The translations under genes were made by a program, and so were the position numbers. From the NCBI GenBank assembly GCA_002722595.1, contig PBMO01000003.1, forward strand, positions 11,588 to 75,587: DNA of 64,000 nucleotides. Reading direction: 5' to 3'. The stretch is from Methanobacteriota archaeon. GTDB lineage: Archaea; Thermoplasmatota; Poseidoniia; Poseidoniales; Thalassarchaeaceae. Under the pieces are notes generated by a model. It had not been told where the DNA came from. It worked only from the letters and a program-made list of their open reading frames with translations, and searched no databases. Below, in pieces: positions 16,286-59,364 of the stretch. Each line of letters begins with the position of its first letter. The stretch's first letter is position 1.

Positions 16286-16311
16286 CACACTTCAAACCGA
16301 CGCAATTGAGT

Positions 16312-23260: not shown

Positions 23261-24262
23261 ATGGTCGCACCAAGGGGACGTGTCGTTTGCTTTGGTGAAG
23301 CAATGTTTCGAACATGTCAGGAAAGAGTGACGCCCGGTGGTTCGGAATACAACGTAGCTTGTGCATTGGGCCAATTAGGTGTCACCACATCTTGGGTGAG
23401 CGCATTACCGATTATCGAATCAGACATCGATAACGTTGCTAGGAAATCCAATGTACACCTAGAGATTGTGCGTTCAGAAGGGGTAGTTGGTACGTACTTG
23501 GTCGACCAAAGTAAAGAAATTGTAGATTACGACCGAAAGAATTCTGTATTTGCAAATCTTGATCCTAAAGATTTTGACTGGAGGAAACTACTCACAGGAG
23601 CCAGATGGTTGGTTGTGAGTGGTATAACTCCTCTATTGGGTCATGGACCTAGGTCTTCTTGGGCTTCTGCACTCACCTTTGCCGAGCTAGATGGGACACT
23701 AATTGCATTAGATTTGAATCATCGTCCTGCTCTTGGAACTATTGATGAGCTGTGGAGTATAATTCGGCCTCGCATACGCATGTTCCACATCGTTGTATTG
23801 TCCTCCGAATCATTGTCAATTATTGCCGAAAGGGAGGGATTTGGGCGGCCTACAACATACGCAGAAAATATTCAGGCCCTTGCCGATTTACCAAGGAAAT
23901 TCCTGATTCCACATCTTTGCTGTACATTCAAACGCCCTGAGTCACAAGGGCGACAGATGCGTTGGTCAGTTGTAGCACATGCCTTTGGAATAGATACGAC
24001 AGAAAATGATGCTGTGAACCACTTACCGGTGGAGTATTTGGGTGGGGGTGATGCTTGGTTAGCCGGTTTTATTGATGCATTGAGTGAGCATGGACACGGG
24101 CCAGTCTCACCACTAATTGGGGCAATGAGGGGGGATTTACTTGCTGCATTGAGCCAAAATACGTTTGGAGATGTATCGATTGTAACTAGAGAAGAACTAG
24201 ATGAATATGAATCAAGAAGAGTGTGGGATTCGAATCAGAAACAGAGAAAATTATGCATTTGA
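23261..24262 (+). CDS. kdgK: PfkB-family sugar kinase, 2-keto-3-deoxygluconate kinase-like.
   Basis: It has VVCFGEAMFR at the N-terminus and GGGDAWLAGFIDAL (PfkB signature 2). It lies next to the KDPG aldolase gene. Confidence 0.8.
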   Translation: MVAPRGRVVCFGEAMFRTCQERVTPGGSEYNVACALGQLGVTTSWVSALPIIESDIDNVARKSNVHLEIVRSEGVVGTYLVDQSKEIVDYDRKNSVFANLDPKDFDWRKLLTGARWLVVSGITPLLGHGPRSSWASALTFAELDGTLIALDLNHRPALGTIDELWSIIRPRIRMFHIVVLSSESLSIIAEREGFGRPTTYAENIQALADLPRKFLIPHLCCTFKRPESQGRQMRWSVVAHAFGIDTTENDAVNHLPVEYLGGGDAWLAGFIDALSEHGHGPVSPLIGAMRGDLLAALSQNTFGDVSIVTREELDEYESRRVWDSNQKQRKLCI

Positions 24263-24272
24263 GGGACACTAT

Positions 24273-24914
24273 ATGCAGAAACTGATCAAAAGATTTCGTG
24301 AAGCAGGTGTTATTGCGATACTAAGAGGGAATAACCCAAAACGGTTGGAGGAGCGTGCATTTGAGCTGGTTGATTTAGGTTGCAAAGTAATCGAAGTGAC
24401 TCTTGACAGCCCATCTGCCTTAGACATCGTGCATAAACTGAGTACTCAATTGAATCCAGAGGAAGTTCTGGTAGGTGTTGGAACATTACTTGATGTCGAA
24501 ATGATTGATGATTGTATCGAAGCAGGTGCTAAATTTGCTCTTTCTCCTGTATCGCCACCACTTATGATTGAGAAATGCCATGAAAAAGGACTTCTTGCAA
24601 TACCGGGAGTATCTACACCTGATGAAATGAATGATGCAATAAACCGTGGAGCGAAATTAATCAAATTGTATCCAGCCTCTAGTTGGGAATCACAAATGTT
24701 AATTGGAGTTAAAACTCCATGGATTCCAGTTGGTGGTATTGACCAGAACACTATCACTGAATGGCTCGACAAGGGTGCATTTTGCGTAGGGATGGGAACG
24801 CATCTTTGTGGTTCGGACTTGAGCAGAGATGACGACAATGGTTGGGATGTAAAAGAAGCACAAGTAGCACGGGACATATTCAAGGAACTCCAACGAAGAG
24901 GAGGGGTTGCGTGA
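24273..24914 (+). CDS. eda: 2-dehydro-3-deoxy-phosphogluconate (KDPG/KHG) aldolase.
   Basis: AGVIAILRG, IEVTLDSP, VGVGTLL and KLYPA match the Eda family. The listed ORF starts at 24201, inside kdgK. The ATG at 24273 follows the kdgK stop at 24262. Confidence 0.85.
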   Translation: MQKLIKRFREAGVIAILRGNNPKRLEERAFELVDLGCKVIEVTLDSPSALDIVHKLSTQLNPEEVLVGVGTLLDVEMIDDCIEAGAKFALSPVSPPLMIEKCHEKGLLAIPGVSTPDEMNDAINRGAKLIKLYPASSWESQMLIGVKTPWIPVGGIDQNTITEWLDKGAFCVGMGTHLCGSDLSRDDDNGWDVKEAQVARDIFKELQRRGGVA

Positions 24915-26092
24915 CTAGTATTCGTTCGGCTGTTTGTGTGAGGTGCCCTCCAAGGTGGCTCCTCTTCCGCGTTGAAACGGCTGATGGAAGTGTTGGCTGG
25001 GGTGAAGCAATTGGCGATTTACATGAAGAACTAGAAAATGCCCTTAATGCACTCGGTGAAAGAGTACAGGGCGAGGATATACATGATATTTCTAGACTTA
25101 TTGAAACACATCGAAAATCACGATTCTGGAGAGATGGACCAATACTAGATTCAGCCTTATCTGCACTTGAGATTGCTCTCTGGGATCTCAAAGGCAAAGA
25201 GTTTGGTGCACCAATATACGAACTTCTTGGAGGAAAAGTGCGAGACAAAGTAAGAGTGTACAGAAACCTTTGGGGCCGTGACCCTGAGGAATTTGCGGCA
25301 TCAGCATCTGAAGCAATATCTCAATCGATGACAGCAGTCAAGGTAAGTCCAGCAGGACCCACTCCCAGTGTTGTATCCAGAGAAAGTCTCCGTGGGATGG
25401 TTGCTATTGTTGACAAGATTCGCGACTCCGTAGGCCCTGAAATCGATATCGCTGTCGACCTGCATGGTCGACTTACTCCTGCTGCCTCGAGACAAGCAGT
25501 GCACGCATTGTCGAAGTTTGATTTGTTCTTCATAGAAGAACCATGTTTACCTGATGGTGGTGCTGTACATATTGCTGACCTAAGGGCTCTACGTACTGCC
25601 CAACCAGTAGCCATTGCAACAGGTGAAAGACTGCGTAGTCCGTACGCTTTTTCGCAACACCTTTTTCCTAATCCAGTTGTAGACATTATTCAACCAGATC
25701 TGAGCATGGTGGGAGGAATACAAGCGGCGCTGAATATCGGAGCGATGGCAAGCGCAGCCCAAATCGCCTTGGCACCTCATTGTCCGTATGGCCCTGTTCA
25801 ATTAGCCGCTTCATTACAACTTGCCGCATCTTGTCCATCTCACTTGATTCAAGAGTTCCAGTCATTAGGAGGAGCCGGGTCAGGAGGCGGTATACCTGGG
25901 GGCGGGCAAAATTGGGCATTTGATCTTCTTGAGCAGTCGTTTGAAATCGAGAATGGACATGTCGATGTTCCCCCGAAACCAGGACTGGGAATTTCAGTAT
26001 TGGAGGAAGAAATTGGTGAGTATATGGCAATGTGGAATCCACATCCGCCAACTGTTTGGTCTCATCCTGATGGAAGCTACGCAGAGTGGTAA
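24911..26092 (+). CDS. Enolase-superfamily sugar-acid dehydratase (gluconate/galactonate/mannonate dehydratase-like).
   Basis: It has LLFRVETADGSVGWGEA, ALWDLKGKEFGAPIYELLGG, DLHGRL and FIEEP metal-ligand motifs. The GTG at 24911 overlaps the eda stop (GTGA), which suggests translational coupling. The listed ORF start at 24842 lies inside eda. Confidence 0.85.
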   Translation: MTSIRSAVCVRCPPRWLLFRVETADGSVGWGEAIGDLHEELENALNALGERVQGEDIHDISRLIETHRKSRFWRDGPILDSALSALEIALWDLKGKEFGAPIYELLGGKVRDKVRVYRNLWGRDPEEFAASASEAISQSMTAVKVSPAGPTPSVVSRESLRGMVAIVDKIRDSVGPEIDIAVDLHGRLTPAASRQAVHALSKFDLFFIEEPCLPDGGAVHIADLRALRTAQPVAIATGERLRSPYAFSQHLFPNPVVDIIQPDLSMVGGIQAALNIGAMASAAQIALAPHCPYGPVQLAASLQLAASCPSHLIQEFQSLGGAGSGGGIPGGGQNWAFDLLEQSFEIENGHVDVPPKPGLGISVLEEEIGEYMAMWNPHPPTVWSHPDGSYAEW

Positions 26093-28339
26093 TCAAACAA
26101 GAATCGAATCAGGATCCCGCCCACCAATCCATGCCAAAACCGGGGTTGCAACCAGTATTGGGAAACCTAGCAAGACACCAATTGCCCCCCCGAAATTGTA
26201 TGAAGATGTATCTGTGGTTGAAAGAACCGAAACCATGCCATCATCTGGATTTGTAGACGGGATAATCAGATGATATGCTGTTACATTAATTCTGAATGAT
26301 GCTTGATGTACAAGTTGAAATCCTGCATTACAATTAGTATCAGTCATCTCAACTTTCAATGTCCATGTTCCCCGGCCATGACCCCACCAAATTTCTCTTG
26401 TGATTTGATCTAACTGAACTAGAAGCGCTTCCTCTGATTCGAATCCAGTTAGATTTGCTGCTTTTGAATCAAAGGAGATATCCATACTCCCTTCCCAATC
26501 TTCTGCGATGAAACCCGATTCATTGGTTCCATCTGAAAAATTACCCCGGTCAGGCATTGAGAATGTGGTAGTCCAAACAGGCTCTCCAATTCCAAGGCAA
26601 TCATGATTTTCTAATTCAACACTAAAGAATCCAAGGAAAACTCCCCCTTCCGTAGTCGGAATATCAATTGTGGCGAGAACATTGCCACCGGTGGTGATGG
26701 TGTTGGCTGTTTCAAAGGTAATCGAGGTCTCATTCCAGCCGAGAAGGTCCCAACTCTCTTGAGTCTCTTCTGTCTCCCATTTCAACAAAACCATTGGACC
26801 CGCAAATAGCGCTGCTGAAAGCAAAATGCCTACGACACCTGTGCTGATTGCCAATCGCCGACGCGATGAATTGTCTACAGGGTCAACACCCCATGGAAGT
26901 CTAGACAACTTGTTCTGCAATTCTCGAATTTTATCAGCCAAATCAATTCGATCTTCGACTTCCTCGCCTGCTTCGAGTTTGAACTTTGAAAAATAGCGCA
27001 AACCGATTAGTGGACCAATTGCTGCAGCTGCGAACAACAATGCATAGGAATCATCCGTAACGAAAAGTAGAATCCCGCCTAAACCTACCATGATGAAAGT
27101 TGCAGAAACAGCATGGGTTGTTTGGTATAGCGACATGTGCGTGGGACCCAAACGCGGATCACTGACCTCTGCCCATACGGTGATGAATGTGTACATCATC
27201 CAGTCAGTTAGGAACAGCGTTGGCATCCAAAGAATCAGAATAGGAAGGGCTGGTGCACCTATTGCCATCAATACCGCTAGGCCAAGATAGCATACTATCG
27301 AACCAATCGCATACAAACGAAGCATCCTTGAACGCCCATAGATATCAGATAACCAAGGACCAAGGACACCAAGATACTTCGATATGATGAATACATTGGA
27401 CCAAAGTGTAATATCTGCTGCTGAGAAACCAAGAATTTCCTTCTGATAATTGATGAACCAAGTTTCAAATCCGTCTCCTAATGGTAATAAGAAACAGCAA
27501 AGGAGAACAAGCCAAGATGTTTGCGAACGCATCGCTGCAAGAATCTTTTGACTGATGGATGTGTTTTCCGGAAATTGGAGATTTACATCATCTATGGCTG
27601 ATTTCAAATCCTTTGCCACACGCATTTTCTTACCAGAATTTGGGCCCCTAAGACTTTGACCTTCTTTCATCAGAAATGTCATCGCAATACCGCTAATTGC
27701 AGCAATTAAGGCAATACATACCGCGATAATTTGTATCATGCCAAAATCAAGTTCACCATCTTTGTAGAAGGGACTCTTGGTTTCTGCAGCAACGAACCAA
27801 CCCATCAGCATAATCAGGATTGTTCCTCCTCCCCTCCACGCAAAATTGATCATAGAATTGAAGCGGCCAAGATCGGGTATACTTTCAGCCATCATACCGG
27901 CAACTGCCTGTTCTGCAAACAATCGAGGAATCATGCAAACAACAATTACACCAATGAATAACCAAGGTTGAGCTTCTAAATCGATGAATGCCAATGGAAC
28001 AAACAATATTGCATGCCCTATTGAACCGAATAACATCCAAGATCTCCTTCTGCCAAATGAAAAAGATTGCATTCTCTCCACTGGTTGTGCCCAAACAGGA
28101 CGAAGGAAAAACGGGATTTGTGCAACCATCCACATTGTGGCAACCAAATACTTGTCCATATTGTATTCGCCAATTGCTATTGTGTGAGTCCAATAGGACA
28201 TGAACCCAAAAGGAAGAATGAAACCCATGTAAAAAAACAGGCACCAGATGTATCGGAAACGGCTGTTTTCACCGACATCGATCCAACCAGACCTCAGGCT
28301 ACCCTGAGATGCCAATTCGGCCTCAAGAACGTCGGTCAT
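26093..28339 (-). CDS. AmpG/PAT-type MFS permease fused to a C-terminal extracytoplasmic domain of about 270 aa.
   Basis: About 12 TM segments are followed by one more TM and a beta-rich, sequon-containing domain. IPFFLRPVWAQPVERM...GRRRSWMLF parallels LPWTFKFLWGPVIDRF...GRRRPWILF in 40714..43323. The ATG lies at 28339, with a GTG at 28342. Confidence 0.8.
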   Translation of the reverse strand: MTDVLEAELASQGSLRSGWIDVGENSRFRYIWCLFFYMGFILPFGFMSYWTHTIAIGEYNMDKYLVATMWMVAQIPFFLRPVWAQPVERMQSFSFGRRRSWMLFGSIGHAILFVPLAFIDLEAQPWLFIGVIVVCMIPRLFAEQAVAGMMAESIPDLGRFNSMINFAWRGGGTILIMLMGWFVAAETKSPFYKDGELDFGMIQIIAVCIALIAAISGIAMTFLMKEGQSLRGPNSGKKMRVAKDLKSAIDDVNLQFPENTSISQKILAAMRSQTSWLVLLCCFLLPLGDGFETWFINYQKEILGFSAADITLWSNVFIISKYLGVLGPWLSDIYGRSRMLRLYAIGSIVCYLGLAVLMAIGAPALPILILWMPTLFLTDWMMYTFITVWAEVSDPRLGPTHMSLYQTTHAVSATFIMVGLGGILLFVTDDSYALLFAAAAIGPLIGLRYFSKFKLEAGEEVEDRIDLADKIRELQNKLSRLPWGVDPVDNSSRRRLAISTGVVGILLSAALFAGPMVLLKWETEETQESWDLLGWNETSITFETANTITTGGNVLATIDIPTTEGGVFLGFFSVELENHDCLGIGEPVWTTTFSMPDRGNFSDGTNESGFIAEDWEGSMDISFDSKAANLTGFESEEALLVQLDQITREIWWGHGRGTWTLKVEMTDTNCNAGFQLVHQASFRINVTAYHLIIPSTNPDDGMVSVLSTTDTSSYNFGGAIGVLLGFPILVATPVLAWIGGRDPDSILV

Positions 28340-28404
28340 CACGCAGCCTACGACAGCAACTCAGTCAAGAGTGTGACGGTTGAATGTGGAACAGGCTCTT
28401 GACC

Positions 28405-31220: not shown

Positions 31221-31246
31221 TAGGCATTAGTTGACCTTGAGGTGAC

Positions 31247-34804: not shown

Positions 34805-35680
34805 ATGGAGGTTATACTGGTGAAACGCATAGATGCACATGCACCTGTGAGAATTGATTTGGCAGGAGGTTGGACGGATGTCCCACCCTATACACATGAT
34901 GTAGGTGGTGAAGTCGTAAATGTTGCAATTAACATATATGCACATGCTAACCTAGAAGTTGATAGTGATGGAATTCTAACGGTGAGTTACCGATGCGATG
35001 CACCTGTTGGGTCGGGGCTTGGAACAACGGGGGCAATAAATGTCGCATTAATGGCAGCAATTTCCAATTCGGAAGATGCTGAAGAGAAGGCGTATCAATT
35101 TGAGGCACTGCTAGGAAACACAGGTGGAAGACAAGATCAATGGGCAGCAAAATGTGGTGGCTTTAATCACCTCATGTTCATCGGTGATGCTGTAGAAGAA
35201 CTACCATTTGACCCACCTAGAAGTGCAAAATTCTGGCTGCACAAACATCTCATAGTTGCCAATACTGGAATCCCTCACGTAAGTGGAGATCTACACAAAA
35301 ATATATGGAAAAAATATGTCGAAAAAGACCCTGGAGTAATTGATGGTTTGATGAAAATACGTATGGCTGCAAGGAAAATGGCACAGGGTTTGGACCAAGA
35401 TCGTAGGGATTTAGTTGTCGAAGCATTCAGTGAAGTTTGTGAAGGTGTTGATGCCCTTGATCCTGCTTTACACGACCCCTTTAGGAGCGTAGTTGAACCG
35501 ATGCTCCAAAGCCGTGATATAATGGGTTGGAAAGCACTTGGAGCCGGTGGTGGCGGTTGTGTTGCGATGTTGTGTGCACCAAATCGGCAAGATTCTGTTA
35601 AAGCAATATGCGAAGATGCTGGCTGGTCAATTTTGGACTGGGACTATGACGAGATAGGATTAGTTGTCAATGCCAACTAA
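34805..35680 (+). CDS. GHMP-family sugar kinase, fucokinase-type.
   Basis: APVRIDLAGGWTDVPPY is the fucokinase-type N-terminal motif. PVGSGLGTTGA is GHMP motif II. GAGGGG lies near the C-terminus. The start abuts the GH38 stop. Confidence 0.8.
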   Translation: MEVILVKRIDAHAPVRIDLAGGWTDVPPYTHDVGGEVVNVAINIYAHANLEVDSDGILTVSYRCDAPVGSGLGTTGAINVALMAAISNSEDAEEKAYQFEALLGNTGGRQDQWAAKCGGFNHLMFIGDAVEELPFDPPRSAKFWLHKHLIVANTGIPHVSGDLHKNIWKKYVEKDPGVIDGLMKIRMAARKMAQGLDQDRRDLVVEAFSEVCEGVDALDPALHDPFRSVVEPMLQSRDIMGWKALGAGGGGCVAMLCAPNRQDSVKAICEDAGWSILDWDYDEIGLVVNAN

Positions 35681-36542
35681 TCCCATCGATTTTTGTTGAA
35701 AGTGTCGAAATTGCGGGGATTAATCTCTCAATGATATCCGCGTGCCAATCGGGAATCCCATCCATGGATTCTGAACGCGCAAAAAGAAGTGGCCATCGCC
35801 CCATAGAGGGTGGCCATAACTCAACTTTACCGGGTAAATTGAGTGAGAATGGTTTGGGATTATTCGCCCATTCCATATCTTCTGCTAGGTGTGAAAGTGC
35901 ACCTCTTGAAGAATTGCAAAGTGCCACTGTTCTCAAACCATCCAAACGATTTGCCTCTTTTTCATCTGGCCGATCTAATTCTCCAGGTGGGGCTCGCTCG
36001 AAAAGAAGGAAGCCACGCGGTGAGAAATGTTGATTCCAACCAACTCCCAGAAATAGGGTGAACAAAGAGCACCATTCAGCTGGAGCACGAACGTACCAAC
36101 CCCACCTATCGGCCTTGTTGTCAACCTCAAGATGCCACGTCCACTCCGGAAGTAAGGACTCAACCCGCCTGCGAATTTCAGACAATAATGCCCGATTTTC
36201 CACCACTGATTCCCCATAATTTTCAGAAGGTTGCCCGATTCTATTGGAAATCCATTCAGCCAAATCGGAATCCATGCAGGCAGGAGAAAGTGACCATCGA
36301 TGGACCCCCAATCTCTCAGGGCCCTCATTCATCTTTACACTCTGTTTAGTCCATCTATGAATCGAATCGGCATCATTTCCTGCACCGATAATAAATGAAA
36401 TTCTATCATCTTCTAAGTGTATTTGTTGAGGCGTTGCTTTGACTCGTAACTCGCCTTCAGGTTGTGGTTCATGACCCCCTTCAAGTGGATGGTCGTCGAA
36501 ATCAATCTCTTCCCATAACCTTGCGAAAAGTCGGCCCTCCAT
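35667..36542 (-). CDS. Hypothetical protein (291 aa), last gene of the minus-strand glycan operon.
   Basis: It has an ATG start 24 nt downstream of the preceding gene and is Trp-rich and soluble. I recognised no family. Its 3' end overlaps the convergent kinase gene by 14 nt. Confidence 0.6.
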   Translation of the reverse strand: MEGRLFARLWEEIDFDDHPLEGGHEPQPEGELRVKATPQQIHLEDDRISFIIGAGNDADSIHRWTKQSVKMNEGPERLGVHRWSLSPACMDSDLAEWISNRIGQPSENYGESVVENRALLSEIRRRVESLLPEWTWHLEVDNKADRWGWYVRAPAEWCSLFTLFLGVGWNQHFSPRGFLLFERAPPGELDRPDEKEANRLDGLRTVALCNSSRGALSHLAEDMEWANNPKPFSLNLPGKVELWPPSMGRWPLLFARSESMDGIPDWHADIIERLIPAISTLSTKIDGISWH

Positions 36543-36566
36543 GGTTGGCGGAAACAGTGATGAGAC

Positions 36567-38000
36567 TTAATCCATCACAGAAAGGGGTGGGATAGGATTA
36601 TCGGATAATCTCTGAAGCAGAATCTCCTTGCATGTTGATCGATTTAGAGGTGCATTTGATAGTAAAATCGACCAAATTTCCTCCGTCCACTCTGCAAAAT
36701 CAACTGCCCATTGATACGAACCGATGATGAATTCTGTGTGTTCACAAACAGGAAGGGATTCAGCCTCTGCTAAATGGCTACGAGCCATAGCAGAAGCCAA
36801 TGCGCGTTCTGATTTTAGCAAATCTTCCATACCATTCTCCGCCACTGTGTTTGCGATATGTGCACATGCTCCAGGTACAAAGTTGTCGTCTCGAAACCAA
36901 TTCTCAGCAGGCATCCAATATTGATTATTGAGTAATCGCCAAACATCAAGATATCTAAGACGTAGGATTAATTCAGGACTTTTCTCGAAAAGTCCCTGCG
37001 CTTCTTTTGGTATGCCGTTGTCTGATAGCCAATCACTGAGGACATCGGAAACATCACAATGTGGATCTTTAGTTAAGGCAATAGCTGCATGCAAATTCAT
37101 ATCTGCCCATAATTCACTCTTGGCATGACGTTTTGACCAACCACCCCCTAGTGGAAGAACCCAACTTCCAACCCAATCTAATGGCTGTTTATTTGCGAGA
37201 CCTGTTCTCCCTCTTTCACCACATTCTACTGGGCCCTGGCTCCATTCAATACCCTGCCAATTCGGCAATATACCGATAAATTCATACTCACGTTCGCATT
37301 GAAATTCAATCAGCCTAGGAGGTCCTTCGTTCTGTATGGTCGGATTCCAAGGTTGATGGCGCCAATAATCAGTCATTGTGTGCTTAACTGATACGAAAAA
37401 TCGAGGATCTCCTGCCCATTTTTTTAGAACCTTAGCTTGTAAATTACGATTTGCATGGATCCCATCCTCGCCTAAATCCCAAAGCCTTAGAATACAGCGT
37501 TTACCCATCTCACGACAAACAACTGTTTCAAGGAATTCTATCACTTTCCTCCTTCGCGTAATTTCATCGATTGATGAACAATCAATACACTGACACTTCA
37601 ATAAATCAATGCGTTTGTAATTAGAATCTGGACTGCTAAAAGTTTCACCATAACGGAAAACCATGCCGCGAATACTTGGAACTTTTTCGATAACATCTCT
37701 GATTGCCTTTGCAGTAGCCTCCCAACTACTCTCTTTCCCAGGGCAACCTGCTTCAGAATCCACAGGTAGTGTGAATAGGTCGTCCATTAGCCATACTCCT
37801 AAACCTGCATCACCGGCAGCATTTATTCGCGAAATCAGAGATTCATTCATTCCATACAAACATCCACTCATTTGGTCTGCAATGACCACGTCAGTGAATC
37901 CCAATCTCAACAAACGCTCAGGCGAACGATAATCGGTTTCCAGACTCTCATGTAAAGGTGAATCGTGGACGTATGAGATAATCATCCGCTTTTCGGACAT
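36567..38000 (-). CDS. Hypothetical cytosolic protein, possibly a divergent TIM-barrel glycoside hydrolase (GH67/GH115 alpha-glucuronidase-like).
   Basis: SVKHTMTDYWRHQPWNP and LIEFQCEREYEFIG resemble the GH67 K-x-G-P-x-DFQ-x-REP and EFQITQEYxG motifs. IRGMVFRYGETFSSPDS resembles FGGFLVKADSEGxPGP. The ATG at 38000 (MSEKRM) lies 2 nt after the upstream stop. The listed start at 38030 overlaps the upstream gene. Confidence 0.6.
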   Translation of the reverse strand: MSEKRMIISYVHDSPLHESLETDYRSPERLLRLGFTDVVIADQMSGCLYGMNESLISRINAAGDAGLGVWLMDDLFTLPVDSEAGCPGKESSWEATAKAIRDVIEKVPSIRGMVFRYGETFSSPDSNYKRIDLLKCQCIDCSSIDEITRRRKVIEFLETVVCREMGKRCILRLWDLGEDGIHANRNLQAKVLKKWAGDPRFFVSVKHTMTDYWRHQPWNPTIQNEGPPRLIEFQCEREYEFIGILPNWQGIEWSQGPVECGERGRTGLANKQPLDWVGSWVLPLGGGWSKRHAKSELWADMNLHAAIALTKDPHCDVSDVLSDWLSDNGIPKEAQGLFEKSPELILRLRYLDVWRLLNNQYWMPAENWFRDDNFVPGACAHIANTVAENGMEDLLKSERALASAMARSHLAEAESLPVCEHTEFIIGSYQWAVDFAEWTEEIWSILLSNAPLNRSTCKEILLQRLSDNPIPPLSVMD

Positions 38001-38002
38001 CC

Positions 38003-39031
38003 CTACAGCTCCAGAGCAACTAATTCCCAATCGTGCTCAGCAAATGCTGGAGTTGCTCGCTCCATGAACTCGTCGTCTGGAATAATGCCAATAATAGCAC
38101 CTCCAGACCCTGGTTGCTTCGCACAGGAGCCAAGGCTCCTAGCCAATTTGACCATTTCCAAGTTTTTACCGAGGGCTTCTTCCCCAAATAACTCAGTGCG
38201 GAGATCAAAATTACGATCTATTTCTCTGGATAAAGCTGCCATATCTCCTGCAACGAGGGCTTCTTTACCTCGATGAGCGCACCAAGCTAATTCGTTTACA
38301 ACACGTACCATGACCGGTTCCTGCTCCGCCCACCTTTGAGGAAGGTCTGCGTGTACCTTACCTGATTCGATTCCAGTACCCCCGTGTGCCATCCACATTG
38401 TAGGGAGTAATGACTCTTCCAAATGGGAATAAGCCCCCCAACCGCGTCCAATCATCAGTTCTTCACGGAAATCCATGTGCAACATTTTGTTGTAGGCTTG
38501 TGGCAATCGATCTTGGAGACCTGCATGAATACCCAACCTATCAGTTTCTACCTTTAGCACCATATCAGCAACGGCATGAGGTTGTAATGCAGTTCCCAAA
38601 CCGTGATGTGTGAGAAGGCAACGAATCACAGATGTTACAATCGCAGATGACCCGGCTAATCCAACCTGACGAGGGATATTTGTATCGAGTTTAAGTTTGA
38701 ATCCACTCGACTCCATAGCAAGTCCACTAGATACACATTCATCTTGGAAATGGATGATTGAGGCCAGCACCAAACGATAGAGGCCGTCCTCACTCAAATC
38801 AGGTGGATTTGCTGACAAATCCGACATGGATTTGTATTCCCGTTCATCACCTCCACAATCAAGTTGTAGTGAAAAATCCCAACGATTCTCATGAGGAGTA
38901 AGCACACATCGTGCGCGCCAATTATTTGCTAGGGCGGAGATGCATTGGCCATTGTATCCATCAGAGGGGTTCCCAAGAAGTCCAATCCTAGCTGGAATTG
39001 AGCAATAAACGGCCTCGGCGCCTCTGCGCAT
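38003..39031 (-). CDS. GHMP-family sugar-1-kinase, glucuronokinase-like.
   Basis: ARIGLLGNPSDGYNGQCISALANNW resembles the plant glucuronokinase N-terminus as I remember it. GLAGSSAIVTSV is GHMP motif II. PGSGGA is motif III. Confidence 0.75.
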   Translation of the reverse strand: MRRGAEAVYCSIPARIGLLGNPSDGYNGQCISALANNWRARCVLTPHENRWDFSLQLDCGGDEREYKSMSDLSANPPDLSEDGLYRLVLASIIHFQDECVSSGLAMESSGFKLKLDTNIPRQVGLAGSSAIVTSVIRCLLTHHGLGTALQPHAVADMVLKVETDRLGIHAGLQDRLPQAYNKMLHMDFREELMIGRGWGAYSHLEESLLPTMWMAHGGTGIESGKVHADLPQRWAEQEPVMVRVVNELAWCAHRGKEALVAGDMAALSREIDRNFDLRTELFGEEALGKNLEMVKLARSLGSCAKQPGSGGAIIGIIPDDEFMERATPAFAEHDWELVALEL

Positions 39032-39086
39032 AACCTCTCGACGAAGTTCACGGGTATCTTATTTCCTCTAACACCTCGCCACACAC

Positions 39087-39794
39087 ATGGCGGGGCCAAA
39101 TCAAGTCAATTGGGCTGTTATCCCAGCAGCAGGACTTGGAACAAGAATGTCTGAAAACGCAGTACTGGGGTGCAAAGAACTGATAGAGATCAAAGGAAAA
39201 ACGATGCTTGAGCACACCATTGAAGAACTGGAAATCGCTGGATTTGAACAAATTGTAGTTGTTTCTTCGCCCAACAAGCCAGCCATCGATGAAGTACTCT
39301 CAGAAAGAGGAGTAGAAATTGTTCATCAGGACGAACCAAATGGGTTAGTTGATGCCGTTAATTGTGCACGAAACATTACAGGTAGGGGGCCTTGTATGAT
39401 TGCTCTTCCTGATGTCATGTTCCCAGATACAAATCCTTCCGCTAGACTGCTCGCAGACTATTCTGGTGAAACGCTACTTGCAGTAGTTCGAGTGGAAAAA
39501 CCCTGGGGTTTACAACTCAAAGATACAGGAAGGATTACCAAGATGGAAGGTCGTAAAATTCTCGAGATTTCAGACAAGCACCCTGAGAAGGATTTTCCAA
39601 TCGGAGAATTACGAATTACTGGCCGTGCTATTTGGACTGAAGCATTCTGGGAATTCAATGATGATAACGAAATTTCGACATTACGCAAGTTGGCTTCGGA
39701 GCAAAAATTATTGTATTCTCATGTAGAAACAGAATACATAGATGTAGGTAACCCTAAAGGTTACCAGTATGCACAATCTATTTTCAATCGATGA
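39087..39794 (+). CDS. Sugar-1-phosphate nucleotidyltransferase (GalU/RmlA-like NDP-sugar pyrophosphorylase).
   Basis: It has the AVIPAAGLGTRM signature, KELIEIKGKTML and a 235-aa GT-A-like fold length. Confidence 0.8.
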   Translation: MAGPNQVNWAVIPAAGLGTRMSENAVLGCKELIEIKGKTMLEHTIEELEIAGFEQIVVVSSPNKPAIDEVLSERGVEIVHQDEPNGLVDAVNCARNITGRGPCMIALPDVMFPDTNPSARLLADYSGETLLAVVRVEKPWGLQLKDTGRITKMEGRKILEISDKHPEKDFPIGELRITGRAIWTEAFWEFNDDNEISTLRKLASEQKLLYSHVETEYIDVGNPKGYQYAQSIFNR

Positions 39795-40617
39795 GGATTC
39801 GGCCTCCAACCTCTGGAACGACAAAGGCTTGTTCTGGAGCTCTTTGAACTATTTCATCAACAAAAATTTGTGGGTTGACTGTGTTGCCTGGATCCATCCC
39901 ATAGTGCATAGGGACTATCAATTTCGGATTCAAAGCCAAAGCCAAATCTACAGCCTCATCGTGGCGTAGGTTGTCATTGCCATTTATGCATGCGAAGACT
40001 AGGTCGTAGTGCTTCGAAGCATTTTGCAATGCCTCATGCCAGCCGGGATACGGTCGACTATCGCCCATGTGTAGCACGGTAGAGTCTCCAAACTTTACCA
40101 CATAACCAAGGTACCAAGCCCCATCCTCATTGACGTCGAGTTCTTCATGTGCGGCTGGAATCGCATGGATTTGGATATCTCCAATCATCTTGGAATCCGA
40201 ACCAAGCATGGAAATAATACGGCTCTGTTCAATTCCCCATCCTGTAAGCAAATCGACGGAACGATTAGGCACGACGAAACGCAGGTTAGGGAAATGTGTG
40301 GCTAGTCGAGGAATCGATTCCGGGCAGATATGATCATCATGCCAGTGGGTACAGAGTACCAAATCAGGTTCTGGATGCTCTTCGGGTTTCAGTGGGAACT
40401 CACCAAGTAACTTCCCCCATCGATCACCTGCAAACAAATCTCTCCACCATGGATCAATAAGGATAAGGGGTCCGTTCTGGAAACGTACCATCCATGATGC
40501 TTGTGTTAACCACCACGCTGCAATGGGGGACTCTATGGAAGATTCCATCTGTGCTTTCAGTTCTGCTCCTCTGCATATCGGTTGAGTACGGTGTTCGGGA
40601 ACTGCCCATTCTGCCAT
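39784..40617 (-). CDS. Metallo-beta-lactamase-fold hydrolase (UlaG-like; possible lactonase).
   Basis: It has LILIDPW and CTHWHDDH (HxHxDH), with later His/Asp ligands (AAHE, HMGDS, PMHYG). The listed ORF begins at GTG 40635. The first ATG is at 40617. Confidence 0.8.
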   Translation of the reverse strand: MAEWAVPEHRTQPICRGAELKAQMESSIESPIAAWWLTQASWMVRFQNGPLILIDPWWRDLFAGDRWGKLLGEFPLKPEEHPEPDLVLCTHWHDDHICPESIPRLATHFPNLRFVVPNRSVDLLTGWGIEQSRIISMLGSDSKMIGDIQIHAIPAAHEELDVNEDGAWYLGYVVKFGDSTVLHMGDSRPYPGWHEALQNASKHYDLVFACINGNDNLRHDEAVDLALALNPKLIVPMHYGMDPGNTVNPQIFVDEIVQRAPEQAFVVPEVGGRILID

Positions 40618-40654
40618 GACGTTGCGAACCCTCACAGGACCTTCAGGTTACCCT

Positions 40655-59338: not shown

Positions 59339-59364
59339 AGGGTGACCAGAAAGAACACCCCTAT

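What the first reader, a model, noticed from the sequence alone, without database searches (positions are those of the whole stretch)
23261..40635. Glycan / sugar-acid utilisation island of about 17 kb combining an Entner-Doudoroff branch with uronate-type enzymes and cytosolic glycosidases
The contiguous genes are:
- KDG kinase, KDPG aldolase and an enolase-superfamily acid-sugar dehydratase (GTGA-coupled to the aldolase).
- A divergent AmpG-type permease.
- A uronate-dehydrogenase-like SDR.
- An FGGY::MtlD/UxuB-family fusion.
- GH38 alpha-mannosidase and a fucokinase-like kinase.
- On the convergent strand, a glucuronokinase-like kinase, a GH67/115-like protein and an unknown protein.
- A sugar-1-P nucleotidyltransferase and an MBL-fold (lactonase-like) hydrolase.

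Together these could take imported oligosaccharides or uronates to pyruvate plus GAP through KDG/KDPG, and at the same time recycle released monosaccharides into NDP-sugars. None of the glycosidases has a signal peptide, so whole oligosaccharides would have to be imported.

I do not know this gene combination as a described archaeal pathway. It could be a self-contained polysaccharide/N-glycan utilisation locus.
Basis: partly seen in the sequence, partly recalled or inferred. Interest (0 to 1): 0.68.

Follow-up and report, generated by a model that had tools for sequence, protein, structure and literature searches.

The report
Archaeal glycan salvage and breakdown island
A roughly 20 kb gene cluster conserved in uncultured Marine Group II archaea appears to import mannose- and glucuronate-containing glycans or glycopeptides, strip their sugars in the cytoplasm, then re-activate or burn them; it includes two protein families with no annotation.

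Summary
All 13 genes are present at the stated coordinates, and nearly every family guess survives testing. That includes the two made without database support: the "glucuronokinase-like" kinase is 41% identical to fish glucuronokinase, and the "GH67/115-like" protein has no Pfam or PDB sequence match, but its AlphaFold model matches GH67 alpha-glucuronidases best.

The organism is a Poseidoniales (Marine Group II) archaeon, probably Thalassarchaeaceae. Most of these genes are deposited as "hypothetical protein".

Synteny holds in seven lineages, with proteins down to 43-60% identical. The conserved core is M28 peptidase, MBL hydrolase, nucleotidyltransferase, glucuronokinase, GH67-like protein, an unknown 291-aa protein and a second anomeric kinase. 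GH38, the FGGY::MtlD fusion and an SDR usually accompany it. The island should therefore extend to 43323.

The KDG-kinase/aldolase/galactonate-dehydratase trio is catalytically intact but only variably linked.

Best reading: a cytoplasmic exo-deglycosylation and sugar-salvage island for imported glycans or glycopeptides, with an optional oxidative branch to pyruvate plus GAP. All functions are inferred and no substrate is established.

The 291-aa protein models confidently but matches no fold in the PDB or BFVD. The fusion is undescribed and lacks a conserved catalytic His. I rate it a new variant of a known kind, of moderate interest.

The parts
23261..24262 (+). KDG-kinase-like PfkB sugar kinase
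   Evidence: - Pfam PfkB scores 30.2 bits against a cutoff of 25.8.
- The best NCBIfam matches are the kinase part of the KHG/KDPG aldolase-kinase fusion and the haloarchaeal KDG/KDGal kinase.
- The best PDB matches are KDG kinases 2afb (E 4.7e-21) and 1v19.
- The GGGD anion-hole motif aligns with AAGD of E. coli KdgK.
24273..24914 (+). Class I KDPG/KDPGal aldolase (Eda/DgoA family); the ORF is open from 24201
   Evidence: - PF01081 scores 97.8 bits.
- The best NCBIfam match is KDPGal aldolase, at 130.7 bits and below its cutoff of 207.
- Identity is 28-30% to both E. coli DgoA and Eda.
- The Schiff-base Lys (KLYPA) and the Glu (IEVTL) are conserved.
24911..26092 (+). DgoD-type galactonate dehydratase (enolase superfamily); its GTG start overlaps the aldolase TGA stop
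   Evidence: - NF010624 scores 328 bits against a cutoff of 311.
- The best PDB match is 3rr1, at E 2e-62.
- Identity to E. coli DgoD is 31.6% over the full length.
- D183/H185, E209, E235, D258, H285 and E310 are all conserved.
- The GTGA junction is visible.
- NCBI names cluster members 'galactonate dehydratase'.
26093..28342 (-). MFS permease of 748-749 aa with a C-terminal extracytoplasmic domain of about 200 aa flanked by TM segments
   Evidence: - MFS_1 gives E 3.9e-15 on the N-terminal 464 aa.
- The AmpG family match is weak, at 40 bits against a cutoff of 350.
- TM segments include residues 496-522 and 717-741.
- The gene is conserved in L003. In L010 a paralogous MFS is fused to M28.
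28405..29214 (+). Short extended SDR, Udh/Azf-like; predicted sugar or uronate 1-dehydrogenase producing a lactone. The ORF is open from 28384
   Evidence: - PF01370 scores 70.8 bits.
- Azf gives E 6e-18 over the full length.
- Uronate dehydrogenase 3rft gives E 3.5e-9 over the full length, whereas epimerases align only over the N-terminal half.
- The GxxGxxG and YxxxK motifs are present in the sequence.
- The gene is syntenic in L003, L010 and L012.
29211..31220 (+). Fusion of a divergent, truncated FGGY-like kinase domain (about 315 aa) with an MtlD-like dehydrogenase domain
   Evidence: - Both mannitol dehydrogenase Pfam domains score above threshold. MtlD equivalogs reach E 1e-45 but fall below their cutoffs. 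Identity to E. coli MtlD is 27%.
- In the N-terminal domain, Pfam matches only the phosphate-1 motif. Its distant stand-alone relatives are XylB-like FGGY kinases.
- The catalytic triad K-x4-N-x2-H reads K-x4-N-x2-N in all nine fused proteins aligned.
- The gene is syntenic in L003, L010, L012 and L013.
31247..34804 (+). Cytoplasmic GH38 alpha-mannosidase with an N-terminal Pro-rich low-complexity extension of about 250 aa
   Evidence: - All four GH38 Pfam domains are present.
- It aligns over nearly the full length with the MngB model, but at 388 bits against a cutoff of 1138.
- The HTHWDRAW metal motif and the VPDPFGH nucleophile motif are in the sequence.
- It has no TM segment or signal peptide.
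- A 12-nt tandem repeat lies at 31370-31464.
34805..35680 (+). GHMP anomeric sugar kinase (HddA/WcbL/fucokinase-like); it abuts the GH38 stop codon
   Evidence: - PDB matches are 3k85 (E 2.5e-23), WcbL 4usk/4usm and the Fkp fucokinase domain.
- NCBIfam matches Fkp and HddA.
- JGI names a cluster member 'D-glycero-alpha-D-manno-heptose-7-phosphate kinase'.
- The TGAATG junction is visible.
- The gene is syntenic in all relatives.
35667..36542 (-). Unknown 291-aa protein restricted to Poseidoniales; confidently modelled, with no fold match in the PDB or BFVD
   Evidence: - It has no Pfam, NCBIfam or PDB sequence match. None of 31 family members has a credible Pfam match (one chance-level hit, E 0.025).
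- All 96 homologues that carry a name come from Poseidoniales or Thermoplasmatota.
- The AF2 model has pLDDT 91.5 and pTM 0.89.
- The best Foldseek match is E 0.74 in the PDB and E 0.13 in BFVD.
- There are 46 invariant columns, rich in D, E, H and R.
- It always lies directly downstream of the GH67-like gene.
36567..38000 (-). Uncharacterised 477-aa family: a TIM-barrel plus helical-bundle protein with a GH67-like fold; predicted glycosidase, probably a glucuronidase
   Evidence: - It has no Pfam or NCBIfam match, in it or in 24 relatives. It has no PDB match as a single sequence or as a profile.
- The AF2 model has pLDDT 91.6.
- Foldseek's top matches are GH67 alpha-glucuronidases at E 4e-12 to 3e-11 and TMq 0.56-0.61. 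GH84 and GH20 follow.
- Invariant acidic residues include E119 just after strand 4.
- A 2-nt gap or a 4-nt overlap separates it from the glucuronokinase gene in the lineages where the junction was read (window, L010, L012, L013). The gap is 26 nt in L031, and the kinase call in L030 is truncated.
38003..39031 (-). Glucuronokinase-family GHMP kinase
   Evidence: - GHMP_kinases_N gives E 9.5e-11.
- It is 38-41% identical over about 96% of its length to eukaryotic 'glucuronokinase with putative uridyl pyrophosphorylase', at E about 1e-62.
- The pairwise comparison gives 41% identity and E 4e-76.
- JGI names Poseidoniales homologues 'glucuronokinase'.
- The zebrafish enzyme is characterised in PMC3938481.
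39087..39794 (+). Sugar-1-phosphate nucleotidyltransferase, divergently transcribed from the glucuronokinase gene
   Evidence: - Pfam matches NTP_transf_3 and NTP_transferase.
- NCBIfam matches are GalU, archaeal GlmU and RmlA-like, all below their cutoffs.
- The GxGTR motif is in the sequence.
- It is present in L010, L012, L030 and L031 and absent in L013.
39784..40617 (-). MBL-fold hydrolase, UlaG/UPF0173-like; predicted lactonase. The ORF is open to 40635
   Evidence: - Lactamase_B_3 scores 70.2 bits.
- The best PDB match is the L-ascorbate-6-phosphate lactonase UlaG 2wyl, at E 3.9e-8.
- The HWHDDH motif is in the sequence.
- The gene is syntenic in all relatives.
40714..43323 (+). Membrane-anchored extracytoplasmic M28 aminopeptidase fused to an AmpG/RhtX-like MFS permease.
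   Evidence: - Pfam matches Peptidase_M28 and MFS_1.
- The AmpG family gives E 9e-31 and RhtX/FptX gives E 3e-32, both below their cutoffs.
- There is an N-terminal TM segment at residues 7-30, then the M28 domain, then the MFS helices.
- An M28 gene sits next to the MBL gene in every relative. It is fused to MFS in the window and L010. It is alone in L012, L013 and L031. In L030 it is 901 aa, with no MFS hit on record.

Best explanation
This is a conserved Poseidoniales (Marine Group II) island for using glycans or glycopeptides that contain mannose and glucuronate. The proposed mechanism follows; every step is inferred from family, fold or gene context.

1. A membrane-anchored M28 aminopeptidase trims glycopeptides outside the cell. 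In relatives, M60-like, M14-like or reprolysin-like peptidases would contribute too.
2. The MFS permease fused to M28, and the second 749-aa MFS, import the products.
3. In the cytoplasm a GH38 exo-alpha-mannosidase releases mannose. A previously unannotated TIM-barrel enzyme with a GH67-like fold releases a uronic acid, most likely glucuronate.
4. Two GHMP anomeric kinases make sugar-1-phosphates. One belongs to the glucuronokinase family and is translationally coupled to the GH67-like gene. The other is HddA/fucokinase-like.
5. A nucleotidyltransferase converts the sugar-1-phosphates to NDP-sugars for re-use.
6. Sugar that is not salvaged can be oxidised and cleaved:
   - The Udh/Azf-like SDR oxidises it to a lactone.
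   - The MBL lactonase opens the lactone.
   - The DgoD-type dehydratase dehydrates the sugar acid.
   - The KdgK-like kinase phosphorylates the product.
   - The Eda/DgoA aldolase cleaves it to pyruvate plus glyceraldehyde-3-phosphate.
7. The FGGY-like::MtlD-like fusion probably channels a polyol or ketose (mannitol-type) to a sugar phosphate.
8. The role of the 291-aa protein is unknown.

Shown here: gene presence, family or fold membership, intact catalytic motifs and conserved gene order. Inferred: all substrates, the direction of flux and the cooperation between the genes.
For: **Family and fold**
- GHMP342 is 41% identical (E 4e-76) to fish glucuronokinase, which is fused to a nucleotidyltransferase domain in that lineage. 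The enzyme is characterised in PMC3938481.
- The unannotated protein models at pLDDT 91.6 and matches GH67 alpha-glucuronidases best.

**Gene arrangement**
- The GH67-like gene starts 2 nt after, or overlaps by 4 nt, the glucuronokinase gene wherever the junction was read (window, L010, L012, L013). The gap is 26 nt in L031.
- The gene order M28, MBL, NTP transferase, GHMP, GH67-like, unk291, GHMP is kept in seven lineages (window, L003 in part, L010, L012, L013, L030, L031). Protein identities fall to 43-60%. The exception is L013, which lacks the NTP transferase.
- GH38, the fusion and the SDR accompany this core in most lineages.

**Catalytic integrity and location**
- Catalytic residues of DgoD, Eda and PfkB are intact.
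- GH38, GHMP, NTP-transferase, MBL and SDR motifs are present in the sequence.
- The glycosidases lack signal peptides, whereas the M28 domain is membrane-anchored outside the cell.

**Context**
- Peptidases recur next to the island.
- Poseidoniia are known to be CAZyme-poor and peptidase-rich (PMC10710508 and PMC6864105).
- GH38 transcripts of MGII have been seen in situ (PMC4660358).
- Diatom glucuronomannan, an alpha-1,3-mannan carrying glucuronic acid, is an abundant candidate substrate (PMC9723552).
Against: - No activity or substrate has been tested.
- The GH67-like protein shares only about 11% identity with GH67, and its catalytic residues could not be superposed. Diatom glucuronomannan carries beta-glucuronate, whereas GH67 enzymes are alpha-specific.
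- The ED trio lies outside the stretches examined in L012, L013 and L031. That was 10 kb on each side, except about 6.9 kb to the contig end on one side of L031. The oxidative branch may therefore not belong to the unit.
- The dehydratase is DgoD-type, not ManD-type. Mannose to KDG is therefore not the obvious route, and no galactose-releasing enzyme is present.
- The SDR and MBL assignments rest on weak matches (E 1e-8 to 1e-18).
- L013 lacks the nucleotidyltransferase.
- The fusion gene occurs alone in two other MAGs, so it need not be functionally tied to the rest.
- Bacterial glucuronokinase homologues sit in exopolysaccharide biosynthesis clusters. That fits NDP-sugar supply but not necessarily catabolism.
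Confidence: 0.55

Rival explanations
1. The island recycles the cell's own envelope. It would re-import and dismantle glycopeptides shed from the archaeon's own S-layer or N-glycoproteins and return the sugars to the NDP-sugar pool. This would be an archaeal counterpart of AmpG-dependent muropeptide recycling in bacteria, not a system for foreign food.
For: - The permeases are AmpG-like, though weakly.
- One permease is fused to an extracytoplasmic aminopeptidase.
- The invariant core is kinase, nucleotidyltransferase and glycosidase, which is salvage rather than catabolism.
- Glucuronokinase homologues in bacteria serve polysaccharide biosynthesis.
- From general knowledge, archaeal N-glycans such as those of haloarchaea contain both hexuronic acids and mannose.
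Against: - No glycosyltransferase, AglB or flippase gene is linked to the island.
- Large secreted peptidases accompany it in relatives: M60-like of about 1350 aa and a reprolysin-like protein. A giant CBM96 surface protein lies nearby. These fit foraging better.
- The ED trio is adjacent in three lineages.
- The island is limited to some MGII clades (PMC6336850), whereas envelope turnover should be universal.
Confidence: 0.17
2. The island metabolises compatible solutes, as earlier genome surveys implied. In that reading the GH38 is a mannosylglycerate hydrolase (MngB), and the MtlD-like protein handles mannitol as an osmolyte or as an algal storage compound.
For: - The best NCBIfam match of the GH38 is MngB, at E 6e-116.
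- The fusion carries an MtlD-type domain.
- Tully 2019 (PMC6336850) and Liu 2023 (PMC10480650) read these genes this way.
- The fusion's architecture, a kinase with a mannitol-1-P-dehydrogenase-like domain, mirrors the phosphatase::MtlD biosynthetic fusion 7ocn.
Against: - The GH38 scores 388 bits against the MngB cutoff of 1138.
- E. coli MngB acts on a substrate phosphorylated by the PTS, and no PTS is encoded here.
- This reading does not explain the glucuronokinase, the GH67-like enzyme, the second anomeric kinase, the nucleotidyltransferase or the peptidases, which are the most conserved genes.
- The MtlD-like domain lacks the family's conserved His.
Confidence: 0.1
3. There is no functional unit. 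In this reading, several small and unrelated sugar-metabolism operons happen to lie side by side in a compact genome.
For: - The ED trio moves relative to the rest.
- The fusion occurs alone elsewhere.
- Genes are inserted or replaced between lineages: DUF2817, a NERD-domain gene, a reprolysin-like gene, and M60-like in place of MFS749.
- The genes lie in at least six transcription units on both strands.
Against: - The order and orientation of seven to ten genes are retained while protein identity drops to 43-60%.
- The flanking housekeeping genes differ between L010 and the other lineages.
- The predicted functions chain into one another: glycosidase, then anomeric kinase, then nucleotidyltransferase; and dehydrogenase, then lactonase, then dehydratase, kinase and aldolase.
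Confidence: 0.08

Closest known systems
Cytoplasmic N-glycan / alpha-mannoside utilisation loci of Gram-positive bacteria built around a GH38 (e.g. Streptococcus pyogenes SpGH38; PMC2815779)
   Same: - A signal-peptide-less GH38 acts on imported oligosaccharides.
- It is clustered with a transporter and with sugar-processing enzymes.
   Different: - Import here is by MFS rather than ABC or PTS, and one permease is fused to a peptidase.
- The released sugars appear to be phosphorylated at C1 and nucleotide-activated.
- The host is archaeal.
- Two unannotated protein families are part of the island.
UDP-glucuronic acid salvage pathway of plants and zebrafish (glucuronokinase plus UDP-sugar pyrophosphorylase; PMC3938481)
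   Same: - The kinase is a clear homologue (41% identity).
- A nucleotidyltransferase is its partner. It is fused to the kinase in fish and is the adjacent gene here.
   Different: - The nucleotidyltransferase here is not detectably similar by BLAST to the fish N-terminal domain.
- The source of glucuronate here would be a linked glycosidase, not myo-inositol oxygenase.
- No such pathway has been described in archaea, as far as I could find.
GH67 alpha-glucuronidases (e.g. 1h41, 1k9d, 1mqq)
   Same: The best structural match is to these enzymes: a (beta/alpha)8 barrel followed by a helical bundle (TMq 0.56-0.61, E about 1e-11).
   Different: - Identity is about 11%, with no Pfam or profile match.
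- The GH67 N-terminal domain is missing (477 aa against about 670-700 aa).
- GH84 and GH20 enzymes are the next-best matches, so specificity cannot be read from the fold.
DeLey-Doudoroff pathway (E. coli dgoKAD) and the archaeal semi-phosphorylative Entner-Doudoroff branch
   Same: - The dehydratase is DgoD-type with all catalytic residues.
- The aldolase is of the Eda/DgoA type.
- Dehydratase, aldolase and a kinase form one operon, with a translationally coupled junction.
   Different: - The kinase is a PfkB (KdgK-like) protein, not the DgoK family. It gave no BLAST hit to E. coli DgoK or KdgK.
- The dehydratase is closer to the bacterial DgoD than to the archaeal gluconate/galactonate dehydratase model (254 bits against a cutoff of 750).
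- The upstream oxidation would use an extended SDR and an MBL lactonase rather than the usual enzymes.
Bifunctional MtlD of Acinetobacter (HAD phosphatase::mannitol-1-P dehydrogenase; 7ocn)
   Same: An MtlD-type dehydrogenase is fused to the enzyme of the neighbouring pathway step.
   Different: - The partner here is a divergent FGGY-like kinase domain, which implies catabolism rather than synthesis.
- The conserved His of the K-x4-N-x2-H motif is Asn.
- No paper on such a fusion was found.
Bacteroidetes polysaccharide utilisation loci for diatom glucuronomannan / alpha-mannan (GH92-rich PULs; PMC9723552)
   Same: They would act on the same candidate substrate class, and they cluster glycosidases with a transporter.
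   Different: - The island has no SusC/SusD, no GH92 and no sulfatases.
- Its glycosidases are cytoplasmic rather than on the surface or in a periplasm.
- It has far fewer enzymes.

Membership tests
GH38 alpha-mannosidase | Pfam GH38 N-terminal, middle and C-terminal domains above their gathering scores | tested here: met
   PF01074 scores 134.7 bits, PF09261 40.2, PF07748 41.0 and PF17677 33.9. All exceed their cutoffs.
GH38 alpha-mannosidase | Metal-binding His/Asp motif and nucleophile Asp motif | tested here: met
   HTHWDRAW and VPDPFGH are present in the translation. The assignment of these motifs rests on general knowledge of GH38, not on a structural superposition.
Mannosylglycerate hydrolase MngB (NCBIfam equivalog NF007331) | Score at or above the curated cutoff of 1138 bits | tested here: not met
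   The score is 388.3 bits.
D-galactonate dehydratase DgoD (enolase superfamily) | NCBIfam equivalog NF010624 at or above its cutoff of 311 bits | tested here: met
   The score is 328.1 bits. It was measured on the ORF that includes 23 extra N-terminal residues.
D-galactonate dehydratase DgoD (enolase superfamily) | Mg ligands and acid/base residues of E. coli DgoD (D183, H185, E209, E235, D258, H285, E310) | tested here: met
   All are conserved in the pairwise alignment with E. coli DgoD.
D-galactonate dehydratase DgoD (enolase superfamily) | Activity on D-galactonate rather than on gluconate or mannonate | not testable with these tools
   This needs an enzyme assay.
KDPG/KDPGal aldolase (Eda/DgoA, class I) | PF01081 above its cutoff, with the Schiff-base Lys and catalytic Glu | tested here: met
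   PF01081 scores 97.8 bits. The Lys in KLYPA and the Glu in IEVTL align with E. coli Eda and DgoA. The NCBIfam subfamily cutoffs are not reached (130.7 against 207), so the KDPG versus KDPGal preference is open.
2-keto-3-deoxygluconate kinase (PfkB family) | PfkB fold and motifs, and closest relatives that are KDG kinases | tested here: met
   PfkB scores 30.2 bits against 25.8. The top PDB matches are KDG kinases 2afb and 1v19. The GGGD motif aligns with the corresponding motif of E. coli KdgK.
2-keto-3-deoxygluconate kinase (PfkB family) | Equivalog-level match | tested here: not met
   NF041332 scores 74.5 bits against a cutoff of 440. There was no BLAST hit to E. coli KdgK at E below 0.01.
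Glucuronokinase (GHMP family, EC 2.7.1.43) | Full-length homology to characterised glucuronokinases and the GHMP ATP-binding motif | tested here: met
   Identity is 41% over 308 aa, at E 4e-76, to a fish 'glucuronokinase with putative uridyl pyrophosphorylase'. Identity to many others is 38-41%. The PRQVGLAGSSA motif is present.
Glucuronokinase (GHMP family, EC 2.7.1.43) | Phosphorylation of D-glucuronate at C1 | not testable with these tools
   This needs an enzyme assay.
GH67 alpha-glucuronidase | Sequence membership (Pfam Glyco_hydro_67 N, M and C domains, or a profile match to GH67 structures) | tested here: not met
   None of 25 family members has a Pfam match. There is no PDB match as a single sequence or as a profile, even at E of 10 or less.
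GH67 alpha-glucuronidase | Catalytic (beta/alpha)8 barrel plus C-terminal helical domain | tested here: met
   The top five Foldseek matches are GH67 structures, at E 4e-12 to 3e-11 and TMq 0.56-0.61. The model has pLDDT 91.6.
GH67 alpha-glucuronidase | N-terminal beta-sandwich domain | tested here: not met
   The protein has 477 aa and the barrel starts at residue 6. GH67 chains have 670-701 aa.
GH67 alpha-glucuronidase | Catalytic Glu acid and Asp/Glu base in equivalent positions | not testable with these tools
   The tools return no residue-level superposition. The invariant E119 after strand 4 is a candidate acid by analogy only.
Uronate dehydrogenase (Udh) / Azf-type short extended SDR | Full-length similarity to Udh or Azf, with the SDR motifs | tested here: inconclusive
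   The best PDB match is Udh 3rft, at E 3.5e-9 over residues 16-265. Azf NF041293 scores 65 bits against a cutoff of 400. The motifs are present. The similarity is too weak to assign a substrate.
FGGY carbohydrate kinase | Pfam FGGY_N and FGGY_C above their gathering scores | tested here: not met
   FGGY_N scores 22.5 bits against 28.8, and only over the phosphate-1 motif. FGGY_C gives no hit. Part of domain II is deleted relative to the longer fused relatives.
FGGY carbohydrate kinase | Homology to FGGY kinases through intermediate sequences, with the catalytic Asp and GGG motifs | tested here: met
   An exhaustive phmmer search reaches stand-alone proteins of 450-500 aa, which NCBIfam assigns to XylB-like FGGY kinases. 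DVGTTATK, GCDDLTAG and MGGGL are conserved across the fused family.
[quoted passage not shown] | Both mannitol dehydrogenase Pfam domains above their cutoffs | tested here: met
   PF01232 scores 51.3 bits and PF08125 scores 80.1 bits. Identity to E. coli MtlD is 27% over the full length, at E 1.6e-33.
[quoted passage not shown] | Equivalog score and the conserved K-x4-N-x2-H active-site motif | tested here: not met
   The best equivalog scores 155 bits against a cutoff of 356. The His is Asn in the window and in all eight other fused proteins aligned.
AmpG muropeptide permease family (TIGR00901) | Score at or above the cutoff of 350 bits | tested here: not met
   MFS749 scores 40 bits and M28::MFS scores 106.9 bits. 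Both are MFS proteins.
MBL-fold lactonase (UlaG-like) | MBL fold with the HxHxDH motif | tested here: met
   Lactamase_B_3 scores 70.2 bits. HWHDDH is present. The best PDB match is UlaG, at E 3.9e-8.
MBL-fold lactonase (UlaG-like) | Lactone hydrolysis | not testable with these tools
   The NCBIfam UlaG equivalog scores 38 bits against a cutoff of 306. An assay is needed.

The most novel reading that the evidence does not exclude
- The 477-aa protein would found a new glycoside hydrolase family: a minimal, GH67-like glucuronidase.
- The 291-aa protein would be an enzyme with a previously unseen fold that acts on the same substrate.
- With the glucuronokinase and the peptidase::permease fusion, they would form an archaeal glycopeptide import-and-recycling system. 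It would be analogous in logic to AmpG-dependent cell-wall recycling.
- Such a system would let the ocean's most abundant heterotrophic archaea exploit diatom glucuronomannan or glycoproteins, although they are scored as almost free of CAZymes.
Probability: 0.3. Interest if true: 0.78.

Novelty: new variant of a known kind. Interest (0 to 1): 0.55.

Why it matters
Marine Group II archaea are among the most abundant heterotrophs in the surface ocean, and none has been cultured. Genome surveys describe them as protein specialists with almost no glycoside hydrolases. Some surveys report none at all in MGIIb (PMC6864105, PMC10710508).

This island shows that part of that picture is an annotation gap:
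- One probable glycosidase is invisible to Pfam- and PDB-based annotation.
- A KdgK-like kinase barely passes its Pfam threshold.
- Most of the island is deposited as "hypothetical protein".

If the reading is right, these archaea can strip and re-use the sugars of glycopeptides or of diatom cell-wall fragments. That would change how their role in carbon turnover is modelled.

The island also supplies concrete targets for biochemistry:
- a candidate new glycoside hydrolase family;
- a confidently modelled protein with no fold match in the PDB or BFVD;
- an undescribed kinase::dehydrogenase fusion.

Tried and rejected
**Searches that found nothing**
- Single-sequence and profile searches of unk487 and unk291 against the PDB found nothing.
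- Pfam scans of every member of both family alignments found nothing credible.
- Foldseek of unk291 against the PDB and BFVD gave no significant match.
- Literature searches for a FGGY::mannitol-1-P dehydrogenase fusion or a 'mannitol kinase' partner found nothing relevant.

**Contexts that did not help**
- Distant bacterial homologues of unk487 (about 25% identity) lie in loosely carbohydrate-related but uninformative neighbourhoods: a GH5, a lactonase, a GDSL esterase and a DUF3826 protein.
- The genome-collection scan with the fusion protein returned only three loci. Two are 'Candidatus Poribacteria' MAG contigs that carry the fusion alone among unrelated genes. The fusion's context therefore does not fix its substrate.

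**Ideas tested and rejected**
- I tested whether the island's nucleotidyltransferase is the homologue of the N-terminal domain of the fish glucuronokinase fusion. BLAST shows no similarity, so the link is one of analogous architecture only.
- I considered a classical Ashwell uronate route (UxaC, UxuB, UxuA, KdgK, Eda). I rejected it because no isomerase is present. In addition, the dehydrogenase domain matches MtlD far better than UxuB.
- I considered GDP-heptose biosynthesis (HddA, HddC). I rejected it because no GmhA or GmhB equivalents are linked.

**Not run**
I did not repeat it, because the organism is an archaeon (TBP, RFC and eRF1-family/pelota-like genes).

Full report
**1. What is there**

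The interval 23261-40635 holds 13 tightly packed genes on both strands.

- **KDG kinase.** A PfkB kinase whose best solved relatives are KDG kinases (2afb, E 4.7e-21).
- **Aldolase.** An Eda/DgoA class I aldolase (PF01081, 97.8 bits).
- **Dehydratase.** An enolase-superfamily dehydratase that passes NCBI's equivalog threshold for galactonate dehydratase (328 bits against 311). Its GTG start overlaps the aldolase TGA stop.
- **Permease.** A divergently oriented 749-aa MFS permease.
- **SDR.** A short extended SDR whose full-length matches are uronate dehydrogenase (3rft) and the Azf glucose-6-P dehydrogenase.
- **Fusion.** A 669-aa fusion ending in an MtlD-type dehydrogenase.
- **GH38.** An 1185-aa GH38 alpha-mannosidase.
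- **Two GHMP kinases.**
- **Two proteins with no match to any Pfam or NCBIfam family.**
- **Nucleotidyltransferase.** A sugar-1-phosphate nucleotidyltransferase.
- **MBL hydrolase.** Its best solved relative is the lactonase UlaG.

Alignment with the E. coli enzymes shows the active sites are intact. Every catalytic residue of DgoD is conserved. So are the Schiff-base Lys and the Glu of the aldolase, and the anion-hole motif of the PfkB kinase. Neither glycosidase has a signal peptide or a transmembrane segment.

**2.

- **The kinase at 38003-39031.** It is 38-41% identical over about 96% of its length to eukaryotic "glucuronokinase with putative uridyl pyrophosphorylase" (E about 1e-62). The pairwise comparison gives 41% identity and E 4e-76. 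JGI's pipeline names the Poseidoniales homologues glucuronokinase. The zebrafish enzyme has been characterised (PMC3938481).
- **The protein at 36567-38000.**
  - It has a true length of 477 aa.
  - It has no Pfam, NCBIfam or PDB sequence match, even as a 25-sequence profile.
  - With that alignment AlphaFold2 gives pLDDT 91.6.
  - The five best Foldseek matches in the PDB are GH67 alpha-glucuronidases (E 4e-12 to 3e-11, TMq 0.56-0.61). GH84 and GH20 enzymes follow.
  - It is therefore a TIM-barrel plus helical-bundle protein of the GH67/GH84/GH20 structural type. It lacks the GH67 N-terminal domain.
  - At about 11% identity it is not a sequence member of GH67.
- **Their coupling.** The GH67-like gene starts 2 nt after the glucuronokinase stop in the window, and 2 nt after or 4 nt overlapping it in L010, L012 and L013. 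In L031 the gap is 26 nt. This coupling is the main argument that the enzyme releases a uronic acid.

**3. The third minus-strand gene (35667-36542)**

- It defines a family found only in Poseidoniales/Thermoplasmatota metagenomic sequences. None of 31 members has a credible Pfam match; one has a chance-level hit at E 0.025.
- Its model is equally confident (pLDDT 91.5, pTM 0.89).
- The model matches nothing in the PDB (best E 0.74, TMq 0.18) or in BFVD.
- Forty-six columns are invariant, many of them Asp, Glu, His or Arg. That pattern looks enzymatic.
- Its function is open.

**4. The fusion**

- **The C-terminal half.** It carries both mannitol dehydrogenase domains. It is 27% identical to E. 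coli MtlD over the full length. It resembles MtlD far more than UxuB.
- **The N-terminal domain.** This domain of about 315 aa matches Pfam FGGY_N only at the phosphate-1 motif. An exhaustive search of 1.84 billion representatives finds only 46 relatives. The nearest are other fusions of 720-800 aa. Beyond them lie stand-alone proteins of 450-500 aa that NCBIfam assigns to XylB-like FGGY kinases.
- **What the alignment shows.** The window's lineage has lost part of FGGY domain II. It keeps the DxGTT, GCDDLxAG and GGG motifs. The K-x4-N-x2-H motif of the dehydrogenase family reads K-x4-N-x2-N in all nine fused proteins.
- **Conclusion.** This is a non-canonical and undescribed enzyme. A polyol or ketose kinase plus dehydrogenase pair is the most economical guess.

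**5. Organism and annotation status**

- Homologues are named Thalassarchaeaceae, Poseidoniales or Thermoplasmatota.
- TBP, RFC and eRF1-family (pelota-like) genes in the window confirm an archaeon.
- The exact proteins come from an NCBI MAG ("Euryarchaeota archaeon", locus tags CMB37_00315 to CMB37_00385). Apart from "galactonate dehydratase", that MAG's own entries for the looked-up island proteins are labelled "hypothetical protein".

**6. Synteny**

- **The reference scan.** It found one relative that shares the left half of the island (L003).
- **Contig look-ups.** Progressively more distant homologues of the GH67-like protein (65%, 52% and 44% identity) recover the same arrangement in L012, L013, L010, L030 and L031.
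- **The core order.** It reads: M28 peptidase, MBL hydrolase, nucleotidyltransferase (absent in L013), glucuronokinase, GH67-like, unk291, second GHMP kinase.
- **Further along.** GH38, the fusion and the SDR usually follow. A DUF2817 (M14-like) or NERD gene is sometimes inserted.
- **Extra peptidases.** An M60-like peptidase of about 1350 aa replaces the 749-aa MFS in L010 and L012. L030 carries a reprolysin-like protease.
- **The M28 gene (40714-43323).** In the window it is fused to an AmpG/RhtX-like MFS. Its peptidase domain lies outside the membrane.
- **The ED trio.** It is adjacent in the window and in L003. It lies on the other flank in L010. It is absent from the stretches examined in L012, L013 and L031.
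- **The flanks.** The flanking genes in the window are housekeeping genes.

**7. Interpretation**

- **The best-supported module.** It runs from glycosidase to anomeric kinase to nucleotidyltransferase. Glucuronate released by the GH67-like enzyme would be phosphorylated by the glucuronokinase. Mannose from GH38 would possibly be phosphorylated by the HddA/fucokinase-like kinase. Both products would then be nucleotide-activated.
- **The oxidative branch.** The SDR, the MBL lactonase and the DgoD/KdgK/Eda trio together make up a complete oxidative, semi-phosphorylative route to pyruvate plus GAP. This link is weaker, because the trio is only variably adjacent and its sugar is undetermined.
- **The imported material.**
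  - Peptidases are constantly present, and one is fused to a permease. This suggests glycopeptides or glycoprotein fragments, which fits the known peptidase-rich, CAZyme-poor profile of these archaea (PMC10710508, PMC6864105).
  - Diatom glucuronomannan, an alpha-1,3-mannan with glucuronic acid (PMC9723552), is an attractive alternative substrate.
  - Neither was tested.

**8. Prior knowledge**

- Earlier surveys noted a GH38 in some MGII clades and read it as a mannosylglycerate hydrolase (PMC6336850).
- One survey tied mngB and mtlD to osmolytes and reported kdgK as missing from MGIIa and MGIIb (PMC10480650).
- GH38 transcripts have been seen in deep-sea MGII (PMC4660358).
- I found no description of the island, the glucuronokinase link, the GH67-like family or the fusion.

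**9. Verdict**

- This is a new variant of a known kind: a glycan-utilisation and sugar-salvage locus with an unusual architecture.
- It is of moderate interest. That interest is raised by two unannotated families that could be tested directly, and limited by the absence of any functional data.

Noticed in passing
window 3-7967 (-), runs off the window start: A giant ORF of at least 2655 aa with a hydrophobic N-terminus. It carries four CBM96 carbohydrate-binding modules (E 1.4e-55), a disaggregatase repeat and Ig-like domains. It is a glycan-binding surface protein about 15 kb from the island and may take part in capturing the substrate.
   Followed up: partly
window 10377-10502 (-): Rfam finds a tRNA of 126 nt (52.7 bits), whereas ARAGORN reports no tRNA in the window. 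This is probably an intron-containing archaeal tRNA.
   Followed up: no
window 31247-32000 (+), with an antisense ORF at 31294-32019 (-): The first 250 or so residues of the GH38 are a Pro/Ser/Gly-rich low-complexity region (PSGPPSGPP...). It is encoded partly by a 12-nt tandem repeat at 31370-31464. Relatives have GH38 proteins of 1020-1211 aa, and BLAST aligns them only from about residue 150-250 onward, so the extension varies. The 241-aa antisense ORF is a by-product of the repeat.
   Followed up: partly
L001 10001-12043 and L002 10001-12043 (contigs JAYZAL010000019.1 and PAYP01000039.1): Two MAGs labelled 'Candidatus Poribacteria' encode the FGGY-like::MtlD-like fusion at 63-64% identity to the archaeal protein. 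No other island gene is nearby. This reflects either recent inter-domain transfer or mis-binned or mislabelled contigs.
   Followed up: partly
window 29211-31220 (+), in the motif RKLFTYNCVNA: The conserved His of the mannitol dehydrogenase family motif K-x4-N-x2-H is Asn in all nine fused proteins aligned. E. coli MtlD has His. The significance of that His is recalled from general knowledge of the family.
   Followed up: partly
window 23261-24262 (+): PMC10480650 states that kdgK is missing from MGIIa and MGIIb. This Thalassarchaeaceae-like contig nevertheless carries a KdgK-like PfkB next to an aldolase and a dehydratase. Its Pfam score is only 30.2 bits against a cutoff of 25.8, so automated annotation probably misses it.
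   Followed up: partly
window 40714-43323 (+); also L010 4598-7234, L012 6082-7305, L013 6317-7708, L030 665-3370, L031 5655-7070: The M28 peptidase next to the island is fused to an MFS permease in some lineages: 869 aa in the window and 878 aa in L010. In L030 it is 901 aa, a size that suggests a fusion, but no MFS hit is on record. It stands alone in others, at 407-471 aa. In L010 the fused MFS is closer to the window's separate 749-aa permease than to the window's own fused one.
   Followed up: partly
window 13541-16288 (-) and 55769-59458 (-): Two more large predicted surface proteins. One has 915 aa, a signal-like N-terminus, a C-terminal TM segment and a Big_9 domain. The other has 1229 aa with PKD and CARDB domains.
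   Followed up: no
L019 7001-8089 (an Armatimonadetes-like contig): A bacterial glucuronokinase homologue (about 40% identity) sits inside an exopolysaccharide biosynthesis cluster. The cluster holds GT4 glycosyltransferases, an exosortase, EpsI and an NTP transferase. In bacteria the family therefore appears to feed polysaccharide synthesis.
   Followed up: no
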